A DNA stretch of 8,491 bases from a virus (lineage: Duplodnaviria; Heunggongvirae; Uroviricota; Caudoviricetes): IMG/VR virus record IMGVR_UViG_2548876935_000015; one strand, 5' to 3'. The position numbers were made by a program, and so were the translations under genes. The notes beneath the pieces are model-generated. The model did not search any database, had not been told where the DNA came from, and was given only the letters and a program-made list of their open reading frames with translations. This document shows positions 2,955 to 3,827 of this stretch, one piece after another. Every line of letters starts with the position of its first letter. The first letter of the stretch is position 1.

Positions 2955-3067
2955 GGATATTTATCAGGATTTATCGGCTTCAAATCCCCGGATATGTTAA
3001 ATCTTACCTCACCAGTGATGGGCACTGGCGGGAGGAGGATGTCAATCTGATAAACACAGAGGCGACT

Positions 3068-3328
3068 ATGGATTACACAAATCTACCAAAACAAACTTTT
3101 GCTGATTTAATCGCACTCAGGCAAGCAGTCGTAGCTCTAATCAACTTGTTGCCGGAGAAGGAAAAGGAATTAGTTAAAGCGCTTCTTAACAGAACTGCCG
3201 CCGATTTTTCATCATATCCACTGACAGATGACCTTGCGGACCTTCCTGAATTAATTGCAGCGTCCGCCAATAAGCTTACTGAAGAGATTTACCCTCCTCA
3301 AAAATCTTCACAAAATTCCTGCGAGTAA
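3068..3328 (+). CDS. Hypothetical acidic protein (86 aa), convergent to the lysis genes
   Basis: ATG at 3068 with AGAGG 6 nt upstream; a strong intrinsic terminator starts 19 nt after the stop. Predicted product is acidic and helix-rich (PEKEKELVKALL, DDLADLPELIAAS). No family recognised. Confidence 0.45.
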   Translation: MDYTNLPKQTFADLIALRQAVVALINLLPEKEKELVKALLNRTAADFSSYPLTDDLADLPELIAASANKLTEEIYPPQKSSQNSCE

Positions 3329-3827
3329 CTTCAATGCAATAATCGTAAAACGCCGCAAACTGCTCATCGCGGCGTTTTTTTTCATCTTCAGAAGGAATCA
3401 GCACCGACAATTTTTTATTCAGATCAGCGACGCTGCCCTCCAGTTTTTCAATGGGCGATTCAATATCATCTTTTTCTGACCGCAATGCCGTCGGTGGCGT
3501 CTTCAGAGAACCAGTAATTCTTCCCGGTAGCTTTCCTTTGTAGGTTATCCACACATTCTGCGCCTCTAAAATTATGGGGCGCTTTTCCGGCGACTGCTCA
3601 TCCCCTTCACATAACCCGGCAGCAACATCCAGGAAGACCTGTCTGATGCTCCTTCTGGCTGCTGCCTCATAAAACTCCAGCGCGGCACCTTCAACACGGT
3701 CCAGCGAGATGTCCAAGTCAAAAATTTCACCGTCAAAGTGTTTTTTGTCCCGTAAGGCTACAGTTACCGCCACTTTATTCTCAAAATTGCGAACTCCTTT
3801 CACAACCAGTTCATAGTCTTGAGTCAT
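3276..3827 (-). CDS. DUF1327-family prophage protein (YdfR-like N-terminus, extended 183-aa form)
   Basis: ATG at 3825-3827 lies 5 nt after the holin stop, with GAGAG upstream. The N-terminal region MTQDYELVVKGVRNFENKV...EGAALEFYEAAARRS resembles YdfR, the gene found between S and R in Qin-type cassettes. The ORF track start at 3848 is a TTG. Confidence 0.65.
   Translation of the reverse strand: MTQDYELVVKGVRNFENKVAVTVALRDKKHFDGEIFDLDISLDRVEGAALEFYEAAARRSIRQVFLDVAAGLCEGDEQSPEKRPIILEAQNVWITYKGKLPGRITGSLKTPPTALRSEKDDIESPIEKLEGSVADLNKKLSVLIPSEDEKKRRDEQFAAFYDYCIEVTRRNFVKIFEEGKSLQ
3347..3382 (+). terminator. Intrinsic terminator after ORF 3068-3328
   Basis: AAAACGCCGC / GCGGCGUUUU stem with a 12-nt loop, followed by a T8 tract on the plus strand. 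It lies inside the coding region of the minus-strand DUF1327-like gene. Confidence 0.6.

What the first reader, a model, noticed from the sequence alone, without database searches (positions are those of the whole stretch)
2955..3382. Convergent orphan gene with its own SD and terminator inserted between the DUF1327 gene and the lysozyme
Lysis cassettes of this type are normally tightly packed and translationally coupled. Here a 321-nt gap separates the DUF1327 stop from the lysozyme start, the lysozyme has no recognisable SD, and an opposite-strand 86-aa acidic ORF (3068-3328) with a good SD ends 19 nt before a strong hairpin plus T8 terminator. This looks like a moron-type acquisition that would also insulate the lysozyme from late transcription. 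The product is small, acidic and unrecognised, a profile shared by some phage-encoded inhibitor proteins, but that is speculation.
Basis: partly seen in the sequence, partly recalled or inferred. Interest (0 to 1): 0.55.

Follow-up and report, generated by a model that had tools for sequence, protein, structure and literature searches.

The report
Small orphan gene cassette between prophage lysis genes
A 476-base insert in the lysis region of an E. coli Qin-like prophage carries a real but fast-evolving small acidic protein gene of unknown function, read against the lysis genes and always paired tail-to-tail with a short late-strand reading frame; this is an ordinary phage accessory ("moron"-type) module, not a new kind of system.

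Summary
In detail: the 321-nt gap, the 86-aa acidic ORF (3068-3328, +), its GAGG Shine-Dalgarno and the hairpin plus T8 (3347-3382) are all there.

Compared with phage BP-4795 and K-12 Qin, the window carries a 476-bp insert (3022-3497) flanked by an imperfect 11-nt direct repeat. The insert is more than a one-gene moron. It also adds 73 codons in frame to the DUF1327/ydfR gene, so the "terminator" lies inside that extended late-strand ORF.

ORF86 is very likely a real gene. It matches phrog_2572 and is RefSeq WP_001557934.1 (hypothetical). It has 38-57 % identical, 89-93-aa homologues in Salmonella and other E. coli prophages, each with an SD and the same hairpin. Each is convergent with a late-strand ORF that overlaps its 3' end by 53-59 nt.

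Constraint is weak (dN/dS 0.4-1.0, against 0.06 for the lysozyme), and some copies have lost the start codon or gained a stop. No fold, family or defence-system match gives a function. A promoter is not established.

The idea that the insert insulates the lysozyme from late transcription has no support. Related phages hold different opposite-strand genes in the same slot.

Verdict: a known kind of accessory cassette, function unknown, modest interest.

The parts
3022..3497 (.). Inserted cassette (476 bp, counting one copy of the flanking repeat), absent from BP-4795 and K-12 Qin
   Evidence: Alignment of the BP-4795 empty site with the window's left and right junctions, K-12 alignment. G+C is 42-45 % against 50-53 % in the flanking genes.
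3011..3021 (.). Left copy of the imperfect 11-nt direct repeat (ACCAGTGATGG; GCCAGTGGTGG in the L088 allele)
   Evidence: The single copy in BP-4795 is GCCAGCGGTGG, which encodes the last codons (PPLA) of YdfR.
3487..3497 (.). Right copy of the direct repeat (GCCGTCGGTGG)
3068..3328 (+). ORF86: small acidic protein, phrog_2572, RefSeq WP_001557934.1 'hypothetical protein'. Three predicted helices (residues 8-26, 30-48, 56-74) and a disordered tail.
3059..3062 (+). Shine-Dalgarno GAGG, 5 nt before the ORF86 ATG
   Evidence: Sequence. An SD (AAGGA) is also present before the divergent homologues.
3347..3382 (+). GC-rich hairpin (3347-3378) and T8 (3375-3382): terminator-like on the plus strand, weaker U-tract on the minus strand, embedded in minus-strand codons KRRDEQFAAF
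   Evidence: The 8-bp core is kept in all 10 sequence variants with one compensatory GC to AU change, which is not statistically significant.
3276..3497 (-). 'X-tail': 73 codons (residues 111-183) that the insert adds in frame to the DUF1327 ORF. Same length as the stand-alone 73-aa ORF that partners the Salmonella homologues.
3276..3827 (-). DUF1327/YdfR-X-tail fusion ORF (183 aa, phrog_2091). NCBI's PGAP pipeline annotates only 3492-3827, as a C-terminally incomplete YdfR pseudogene.
3276..3328 (.). 53-nt 3' overlap of the two convergent ORFs (59 nt in the 89/93-aa homologues)
2955..3021 (.). Conserved lysozyme leader, also the left flank of the insert. Its first ~51 nt match the BP-4795 R leader. 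It holds the only promoter-like site for ORF86 (TTTATC 2970-2975, 17 nt, TATGTT 2993-2998).
   Evidence: Both hexamers are kept in the otherwise diverged Salmonella flank, but the position-weight score is only 8 bits and 71 sites in the window score as well.
2421..2954 (-). Lysozyme rrrQ, here with a nonsense codon (TGA at 2547-2549, codon 136)
3832..4047 (-). Class II holin essQ

Best explanation
The window carries a mobile 476-bp accessory cassette that recombined into the last codons of ydfR, just upstream of the lysozyme gene of a Qin-like lambdoid prophage.

The cassette holds two tail-to-tail reading frames.
1. On the strand opposite the late operon is ORF86, a genuine but weakly constrained gene for a small, acidic, cytoplasmic three-helix protein (phrog_2572). 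It has its own SD and ends at a hairpin plus T8 that most likely acts as its intrinsic terminator.
2. On the late strand is a 73-codon 'X-tail'. Here it has lost an independent start and is translated as a C-terminal extension of the DUF1327 protein.

Inferred, not shown: ORF86 is transcribed in the lysogen from a weak sigma-70-type promoter in the lysozyme leader (about 2970-2998), giving a ~375-nt monocistronic mRNA. During lytic growth, Q-antiterminated late transcription reads through the hairpin in the opposite direction to reach the lysozyme.

The protein's function is unknown. Its small size, charge, rapid evolution, narrow host range and position in a slot that holds unrelated opposite-strand genes in sister phages fit a prophage-expressed accessory protein that acts by binding another protein, as in phage-phage or phage-host conflict. 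It is not part of the lysis machinery.
For: Insertion:
- Empty sites exist in K-12 Qin and BP-4795, and an 11-nt imperfect direct repeat flanks the insert.
- G+C is lower than in the flanking genes.
- Between the window and locus L088, dS in the cassette is 0.09-0.16 (0.06-0.32 across all three E. coli allele pairs), while dS in the flanking lysozyme and holin is about 0.95. The cassette has therefore spread recently between divergent lysis cassettes.

Coding status of ORF86:
- Full-length match to phrog_2572, E=4e-53.
- HMMER over 1.8 billion representatives and a profile search found 89-93-aa homologues at 38-57 % identity in Salmonella and E. coli prophages.
- All of them are open, all carry an SD, and length differences are in-frame (21, 12, 6 nt).
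- Codon-position differences run 3rd > 1st > 2nd between clades, for example 41/31/28.
- AlphaFold gives three helices at pLDDT 71-74.

Conserved architecture:
- Nine distinct contexts all show the convergent late-strand ORF overlapping by 53-59 nt, with the hairpin about 20 nt after the stop.
- The X-tail in the window and the stand-alone Salmonella ORF are both 73 aa, with the KRRDE motif at residue 37 in both.

Terminator: -14.6 kcal/mol, z = -3.2, T8.

Variable slot: between the same left flank and the same hairpin, other phages hold a 210-aa, a 104/106-aa (phrog_1853) or a 105-aa (phrog_10490) plus-strand ORF.

Compatibility with lysis: the cassette is present in complete phage genome records.
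Against: - No expression data were available or found.
- The promoter is not demonstrated. The best site scores 8 bits, 71 sites in the 8.5-kb window score as well, it lies outside the insert, and it is also present in phages without any cargo.
- Constraint on ORF86 is weak. dN/dS is 0.37-0.72 among E. coli alleles and 0.49-0.96 among Salmonella alleles. Across 80 loci there were 10 synonymous and 16 non-synonymous variants, against 7.6 synonymous expected under neutrality. Seven loci have ATG changed to ACG and one has a nonsense codon.
- One Salmonella lineage keeps X73 intact but has a 5'-truncated ORF93. Another Salmonella prophage lacks most of the ORF and the hairpin.
- In the Salmonella and L210-type homologues the U-tract after the hairpin is interrupted, so a terminator role is less clear there.
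- Hairpin covariation is not significant.
- Homology of the X-tails rests on a short motif that is also the hairpin.
Confidence: 0.55

Rival explanations
1. ORF86 is no longer functional in this window. It would be a decaying remnant carried passively in a cryptic prophage: either a once-real gene now drifting, or an ORF kept open only because it lies in young, little-diverged DNA.
For: - Within-E. coli variation is close to neutral: 10 synonymous and 16 non-synonymous variants against 7.6 synonymous expected.
- Start-codon loss occurs in 7 of 80 loci and one locus has a nonsense codon.
- IS insertions and deletions hit the ORF in some genomes.
- The window's own lysozyme carries a nonsense codon, so this prophage is degenerating.
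- The family is confined to Escherichia and Salmonella: one hit among 185,579 species representatives.
Against: - ORFs of 86-93 codons stay open, with SDs and in-frame indels, across three clades at 38-57 % protein identity.
- dN/dS is below 1 in most pairs.
- The cassette is present in complete, presumably viable phage genomes.
- It occurs in 315 of 5426 complete E. coli genomes, mostly intact and annotated.
Confidence: 0.2
2. The functional unit is RNA or transcriptional, not the protein. Plus-strand transcription from the lysozyme leader into the 3' end of the late-strand gene, stopped by a bidirectional terminator, would act as a convergent-transcription or antisense brake on leaky lysis-gene expression in the lysogen. 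The ORF would be secondary.
For: - The convergent layout is invariant, with a 53-59-nt 3' overlap and a conserved hairpin inside the late-strand ORF.
- The hairpin is stable on both strands: -14.6 and -18.7 kcal/mol.
- One compensatory change costs two amino-acid changes in the late-strand ORF, R to H and A to V.
- The promoter-like leader travels with the cassette even where no lysozyme gene is adjacent, in L206 and L210.
- Unrelated cargo genes in the same slot all share the orientation.
Against: - The antisense overlap covers only about 100 nt at the 3' end of a gene of unknown role, not the holin or lysozyme.
- The promoter is unproven.
- No Rfam family matches.
- The protein sequence, not just the DNA, shows conservative substitutions and in-frame indels.
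- Covariation in the hairpin is not significant.
Confidence: 0.15
3. ORF86 and the X-tail/X73 form an interacting pair of the toxin-antitoxin or inhibitor-target type. The lysogen-expressed acidic protein would neutralise the late-strand product until induction.
For: - The two frames co-occur strictly wherever an intact family member was found (nine contexts).
- Charges are opposite in the Salmonella pair: pI 4.6 against 9.1.
- The convergent overlap resembles some prophage type I toxin-antitoxin loci (recalled from memory, not tested).
Against: - The two frames overlap physically, so co-occurrence is forced.
- X73 stays intact in a lineage where ORF93 has lost its 5' end.
- The X-tail in the window is itself acidic (pI 5.0) and fused to DUF1327.
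- It has no hydrophobic toxin-like peptide, and there is no PADLOC, Pfam or NCBIfam hit.
- The complex could not be modelled with the tools available.
Confidence: 0.07

Closest known systems
Morons of lambdoid phages (Juhala et al. 2000, as cited in PMC4104026): extra genes with their own promoter and terminator inserted between genes that are adjacent in related phages, for example lambda bor and lom
   Same: It is inserted between genes that are adjacent in relatives. It has lower G+C, its own SD and a terminator-like hairpin plus T8. Its orientation is independent of the late operon, and the cassette is much younger than its flanks.
   Different: The insert is fused in frame to the upstream late gene and contains a second, late-strand reading frame. 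The terminator lies inside that frame. No promoter lies inside the insert, and the location is inside the lysis cassette (between ydfR and R) rather than downstream of Rz or within the tail genes.
K-12 Qin essQ-ydfR-rrrQ-rzpQ and phage BP-4795 S-ydfR-R lysis cassettes
   Same: Same holin, DUF1327 domain, lysozyme and lysozyme leader. The window is a Qin-like prophage with cspI, cspB, cspF, ynfU and gnsB neighbours.
   Different: Those cassettes lack bases 3022-3497. There ydfR ends 0-50 nt before R (ATGA overlap in K-12), with no opposite-strand gene.
Convergent sRNA pairs and Pas sRNAs of EHEC/EPEC prophages (PMC4104026; bioRxiv 10.64898/2026.05.13.724894)
   Same: These are prophage accessory transcription units in or near the late region, convergent with late genes, at conserved insertion sites next to the holin-lysozyme operon.
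   Different: Those are 50-60-nt Hfq-binding sRNAs located between the PR' cargo or sialate esterase gene and the holin. This element lies between ydfR and R, encodes an 86-aa ORF and matches no Rfam family.
PHROG families phrog_2572 (ORF86) and phrog_2091 (183-aa DUF1327 fusion)
   Same: Full-length HMM matches, E=4e-53 and 8e-112.
   Different: Both families are catalogued only as 'unknown function'. The paired, overlapping architecture is not part of those entries.

Membership tests
Moron (lambdoid accessory insertion) | Extra DNA between two genes that are adjacent in related phages | tested here: met
   K-12 Qin and BP-4795 lack 3022-3497. The junctions align on both sides with an 11-nt repeat.
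Moron (lambdoid accessory insertion) | Own promoter | tested here: inconclusive
   The only candidate is TTTATC-17-TATGTT (2970-2998), at 8 bits, with 71 equal or better sites in the window, and it lies outside the insert. The consensus scan found none. Both hexamers are conserved in the diverged Salmonella flank.
Moron (lambdoid accessory insertion) | Own transcription terminator | tested here: met
   Met by sequence only: hairpin of -14.6 kcal/mol, z = -3.2, followed by T8. Function was not tested, and the hairpin lies inside the opposite-strand ORF.
Moron (lambdoid accessory insertion) | Base composition unlike the flanking genes | tested here: met
   G+C is 42-45 % across 2900-3500, against 50-53 % in the lysozyme and the DUF1327 domain. 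The difference is modest.
Moron (lambdoid accessory insertion) | Expressed from the repressed prophage | not testable with these tools
   No transcriptome data were accessible, and literature searches found nothing on this ORF.
phrog_2572 | Full-length match to the family HMM | tested here: met
   E=4.4e-53, residues 1-86 on profile positions 1-86 of 86. The Salmonella and L210 homologues also match, E=6e-24 and 7e-40.
Pfam DUF1823 (the label given to this ORF in phage records PV340550 and PV340545) | Score above the Pfam gathering threshold | tested here: not met
   12.9 bits against a cut-off of 25, E=0.13. The label is not justified.
DUF1327 / YdfR family (partner ORF) | Pfam PF07041 domain | tested here: met
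   E=2.6e-42 on residues 1-112 of the 183-aa ORF. Residues 111-183 lie outside the domain and come from the insert.
Toxin-antitoxin or known anti-phage defence system | Match of either ORF to a known toxin, antitoxin or defence model | tested here: not met
   No PADLOC hit for ORF86 or the 183-aa ORF. Only sub-threshold noise for the homologues. No Pfam or NCBIfam hit.
Known sRNA or cis-regulatory RNA (Rfam 15) | Covariance-model match in 2955-3500 | tested here: not met
   No match at E<=1 in this region of the window or in four related loci.

The most novel reading that the evidence does not exclude
The ORF86-family gene and the overlapping late-strand X frame would form a conserved convergent switch module. 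In the lysogen the opposite-strand gene is transcribed up to the shared bidirectional hairpin, and its small acidic product (or its antisense RNA) keeps the late-strand lysis-cassette protein silent. On induction, Q-driven late transcription overruns and shuts off ORF86 and releases the partner. The slot between ydfR and R would then be a previously unrecognised hotspot for lysogen-expressed conflict genes inside the lysis cassette.
Probability: 0.1. Interest if true: 0.6.

Novelty: new member of a known kind. Interest (0 to 1): 0.33.

Why it matters
If ORF86 is expressed, it adds one more lysogen-expressed accessory protein to E. coli and Salmonella lambdoid prophages, including EHEC prophages and commensal strains such as HS.

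It would also mark the ydfR-R junction as a recurrent insertion slot for opposite-strand cargo genes. At least four unrelated ORF families share the same flanks. Slots of this kind have been productive places to look for anti-phage or anti-defence functions.

On the practical side, the analysis corrects some annotation:
- The 183-aa 'YdfR' is a fusion created by the insert.
- The DUF1823 label on ORF86 is unfounded.
- The 263-aa ORF annotated in Stx1 phages probably masks an unannotated 210-aa gene on the other strand.

Nothing here challenges current understanding of phage lysis.

Tried and rejected
- **Known RNA.** Rfam scans of the window and four related loci found nothing in the region. 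The Pas and anti-sRNA families of EHEC prophages map upstream of the holin, not here.
- **Antisense artefact of a longer late-strand gene.** phrog_1085 (296 aa) raised the possibility that ORF86 is only the reverse reading of such a gene. Rejected: the long protein X (213 aa in L095) is homologous only down to about 3285, and the rest of ORF86 has its own protein-level homologues.
- **Homology with the other slot cargo.** ORF86 shows no BLASTP alignment to the 106-aa or 105-aa ORFs.
- **Function from structure.** Two AlphaFold runs gave pLDDT 74 and 71. Foldseek against PDB and BFVD gave no match with E<1, and a PDB sequence-profile search found nothing.
- **Defence or toxin-antitoxin libraries.** No hits.
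- **Hairpin covariation.** One compensatory pair, not significant (58 of 500 shuffles reached the observed score).
- **Promoter.** The consensus scan and a position-weight scan gave only a chance-level site.
- **Spurious HMMER hits.** A 975-aa TPR/CHAT repeat protein (P0021) and a hydrophobic 95-aa sequence that looks like C-to-T-converted reads (P0023) were discarded.
- **Literature.** Searches for DUF1327, the peptide sequence, the accession and the PHROG id found nothing on this ORF. The source paper for the PhiR phages was not found.
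Full report
**1. Context**

The window is a Qin-like lambdoid prophage of E. coli. A 1-kb query around the finding is 100 % identical to strain CFSAN004176 and 99.7 % identical to E. coli HS.

The lysis genes lie on the minus strand:
- holin essQ, 3832-4047
- a DUF1327/YdfR ORF, 3276-3827
- lysozyme rrrQ, starting at 2954
- Rz/Rz1, 1927-2424

cspI, cspB, cspF, ynfU and gnsB flank them, as in K-12 Qin.

**2. The observation**

- a 321-nt gap, 2955-3275
- an 86-aa plus-strand ORF at 3068-3328 (pI 4.6, net charge -5.5)
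- GAGG 5 nt before its ATG
- a 10-bp hairpin at 3347-3378 followed by eight T. It folds at -14.6 kcal/mol, z = -3.2, and none of 200 shuffles is as stable.

The lysozyme has no SD. The same SD-less leader precedes this lysozyme type in BP-4795 and K-12, so that feature is not caused by the insert.

The minus-strand DUF1327 ORF runs through the hairpin and T-run (codons KRRDEQFAAF), and it ends 53 nt inside ORF86.

**3. It is an insertion, and more than one gene**

In K-12 Qin, ydfR (103 aa) overlaps rrrQ by ATGA. In BP-4795, ydfR (114 aa) ends 50 nt before R, and those 50 nt match window 2955-3005.

Aligning the BP-4795 empty site with both window junctions places the insert at 3022-3497 (476 bp). 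It is flanked by an imperfect 11-nt direct repeat: ACCAGTGATGG at 3011-3021 and GCCGTCGGTGG at 3487-3497. BP-4795 has a single copy, GCCAGCGGTGG, which encodes the last YdfR codons.

The insert therefore entered the last codons of ydfR. It extends that ORF in frame by 73 codons (residues 111-183). PGAP accordingly calls only 3492-3827, as a YdfR pseudogene 'missing C-terminus'.

G+C drops to 42-45 % in the insert, from 50-53 % in the flanks.

Between the window and an EHEC locus (L088), dS is 0.09-0.16 within the cassette but about 0.95 in the lysozyme and holin. The cassette has therefore moved recently between divergent lysis cassettes.

**4. Is ORF86 a gene?**

It is RefSeq WP_001557934.1 'hypothetical protein' and matches phrog_2572 (unknown function) over its full length, E=4e-53.

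A word-indexed search of 5.8 billion clusters found only E. coli relatives at 84 % identity or more, plus fragments. On that sample the ORF looks nearly neutral:
- 10 synonymous and 16 non-synonymous variant sites in 80 loci, against 7.6 synonymous expected under neutrality
- ATG changed to ACG in 7 loci
- one nonsense allele

By comparison, the holin (88 synonymous / 44 non-synonymous) and the lysozyme (99/41) are clearly constrained.

An exhaustive HMMER search of 1.8 billion representatives, followed by a profile search, then found real divergent homologues. These are 93-aa proteins in Salmonella prophages (49-57 % identity) and 89/93-aa proteins in other E. coli-type prophages (38-41 %). 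Several features point to a coding sequence:
- All are open.
- All are preceded by an SD (AAGGA).
- Length differences are in-frame (21, 12, 6 nt).
- Between clades the codon-position differences run 3rd > 1st > 2nd, for example 41/31/28.

Nei-Gojobori dN/dS is 0.37-0.72 among E. coli alleles and 0.49-0.96 among Salmonella alleles, against 0.06 for the lysozyme and 0.19 for the holin.

I conclude that this is a real but weakly constrained, fast-evolving small protein gene, and that some copies are decaying.

AlphaFold predicts three helices (8-26, 30-48, 56-74) and a disordered tail at pLDDT 71-74.

**5. A conserved tail-to-tail pair**

In every context where an intact family member was found, a late-strand ORF converges on it and overlaps its 3' end by 53-59 nt:
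- the 183-aa DUF1327 fusion, in the window and in L088
- 169- and 211-aa fusions, in phages PhiR12_2 and PhiR5_1
- a 243-aa DUF1327 fusion (L211, L212)
- 144- and 116-aa ORFs (L210, L217)
- in Salmonella, a stand-alone 73-aa ORF placed between Rz (DUF2514) and the small terminase gene

The part the insert adds in the window is also 73 aa. BLASTP aligns it to the Salmonella ORF with the E(K/Q)KRRDE motif at residue 37 in both (E=2e-4). The L210-type tail is not significantly similar.

The motif coincides with the hairpin: the RR codons form one arm and the AA codons the other. The 8-bp core is kept in all ten sequence variants. There is one compensatory GC to AU change, which costs R to H and A to V in the late-strand frame. 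This covariation is not statistically significant.

The T-run is perfect only in the E. coli type. It is interrupted in the Salmonella and L210 types.

One Salmonella lineage keeps X73 intact while ORF93 has lost its 5' end. Another Salmonella prophage lacks most of the ORF and the hairpin. The late-strand frame therefore does not depend on an intact partner.

**6. The slot**

I searched viral contigs for the hairpin and measured the distance back to the conserved lysozyme leader. That gave:

| Spacing | Loci | Content |
|---|---|---|
| about 429 nt | 171 | ORF86 type |
| about 900 nt | 16 | different plus-strand ORF of 210 aa (Stx1-converting phages) |
| 996-998 nt | 3 | plus-strand ORFs of 104 or 106 aa (phrog_1853) |
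| 1194 nt | 1 | hybrid locus |
| 1217 nt | 1 | 105-aa ORF (phrog_10490) |
| 1695 nt | 1 | IS-disrupted ORF86 |

All the cargo ORFs lie on the strand opposite the lysis genes.

In the 996-998-nt type the hairpin sits near the 5' end of a 213-aa late-strand gene ('X'). The N-terminus of X is homologous to the window's X-tail. In that type the hairpin cannot be the terminator of the cargo gene. The hairpin therefore belongs primarily to the late-strand sequence.

**7. Promoter**

The generic scan finds nothing upstream of ORF86. The best site is TTTATC-17-TATGTT (2970-2998). It scores 8 bits, and 71 sites in the window do as well.

The site lies outside the insert, in the lysozyme leader that cargo-less phages also carry. 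In its favour, both hexamers and the ATTTATCAGGNTTTATC element are retained in the Salmonella and L210 contexts. There the spacer has diverged and no lysozyme gene is adjacent.

I treat the promoter as inferred, not shown.

**8. Function**

No match to Pfam, NCBIfam, PADLOC, PDB (by sequence or fold) or BFVD gives a lead. The DUF1823 label in two phage records is below threshold, 12.9 against 25 bits.

The protein has no hydrophobic segment, so it is presumably cytoplasmic.

The family is confined to Escherichia and Salmonella prophages. The ORF86 DNA (the E. coli alleles) is in 315 of 5426 complete E. coli genomes, and the family profile hit one of 185,579 species representatives.

The most economical reading is a moron-type accessory gene expressed independently of the late operon. 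Its features fit a protein that acts by binding another protein in phage-phage or phage-host conflict:
- small size and acidic charge
- rapid evolution
- mobility between lysis cassettes
- a slot shared with unrelated cargo genes

This last step is inference only.

**9. Insulation of the lysozyme**

This idea is not supported. The identical cassette is in Escherichia phage PhiR63_1 and phage 2H10. The 92 % allele is in PhiR12_2 and PhiR5_1, whose records list MG1655 and E. coli C as hosts.

On the late strand the hairpin is followed by UUUUACG rather than a long U-run. Lambdoid late transcription is Q-antiterminated (established knowledge). In this particular window the lysozyme is in any case inactivated by a nonsense codon at codon 136.

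**10. Verdict**

The element is an ordinary kind of phage accessory insertion with an interesting detail: a conserved convergent, overlapping two-frame layout with a coding-embedded hairpin. Its function is unknown, and no evidence of expression could be obtained with these tools.

Noticed in passing
window 2547-2549 (minus strand, codon 136 of rrrQ): The lysozyme gene carries a TGA nonsense codon where relatives have Cys. The rest of the 177-aa sequence is identical to WP_001101173.1, so this prophage's endolysin is truncated to 135 aa.
   Followed up: yes
L007 (Stx1a-converting phage LC567821) 1778-2410 plus strand; annotated CDS 2159-2950 minus strand: In the same slot, Stx1 phages have an unannotated 210-aa plus-strand ORF with no Pfam, PHROG, PADLOC or NCBIfam match. 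The annotated 263-aa DUF1327 ORF overlaps it by about 250 nt, and its C-terminal third looks like antisense read-through.
   Followed up: partly
L095 5676-5990, L135, L105 2516-2833: Other opposite-strand cargo genes sit between the lysozyme leader and the hairpin: 104/106-aa proteins (phrog_1853, two alleles that are clearly diverged by eye; identity not computed) and a 105-aa protein (phrog_10490). All have unknown function.
   Followed up: partly
window 2951-3025 minus strand: A 24-aa remnant frame (…KPINPDKYP*) still ends in the ATGA stop/start overlap with the lysozyme ATG. It is a relic of the original ydfR 3' end left behind by the insertion.
   Followed up: partly
window 3033-3050 plus strand: A strong SD (GGAGGAGG) sits directly before a three-codon mini-ORF (ATG TCA ATC TGA, 3039-3050) in the presumed 5' leader of ORF86. 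The ATGTCAATCTGATAA string is conserved in the E. coli alleles but not in the Salmonella ones.
   Followed up: no
window 3012-3028: The left insertion junction forms a perfect 6-bp inverted repeat (CCAGTG atggg CACTGG), made of the flanking repeat plus the first bases of the insert. This may be a trace of the recombination event.
   Followed up: no
L115, L092, proteins P0012 and P0019: IS elements have inserted into ORF86 or into the adjacent DUF1327 gene in some genomes.
   Followed up: no
L094 (Salmonella) and L221-L223 (Salmonella): Two natural deletion variants. One lacks window-equivalent positions ~3146-3368 (most of the ORF and the hairpin). The other keeps the 73-aa late-strand ORF but has lost the 5' end and upstream region of ORF93.
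   Followed up: partly
window 1305-1721 and 4737-5176 (minus strand); 6217-6439 (plus strand): Rfam matches to the cspA thermoregulator upstream of cspI and cspB (110 and 159 bits), and a near-threshold STnc100 sRNA match (46.5 against 47 bits).
   Followed up: no
protein P0023: A 95-aa 'homologue' rich in F, L and V looks like a translation of C-to-T-converted reads of the same locus, not a real variant.
   Followed up: no
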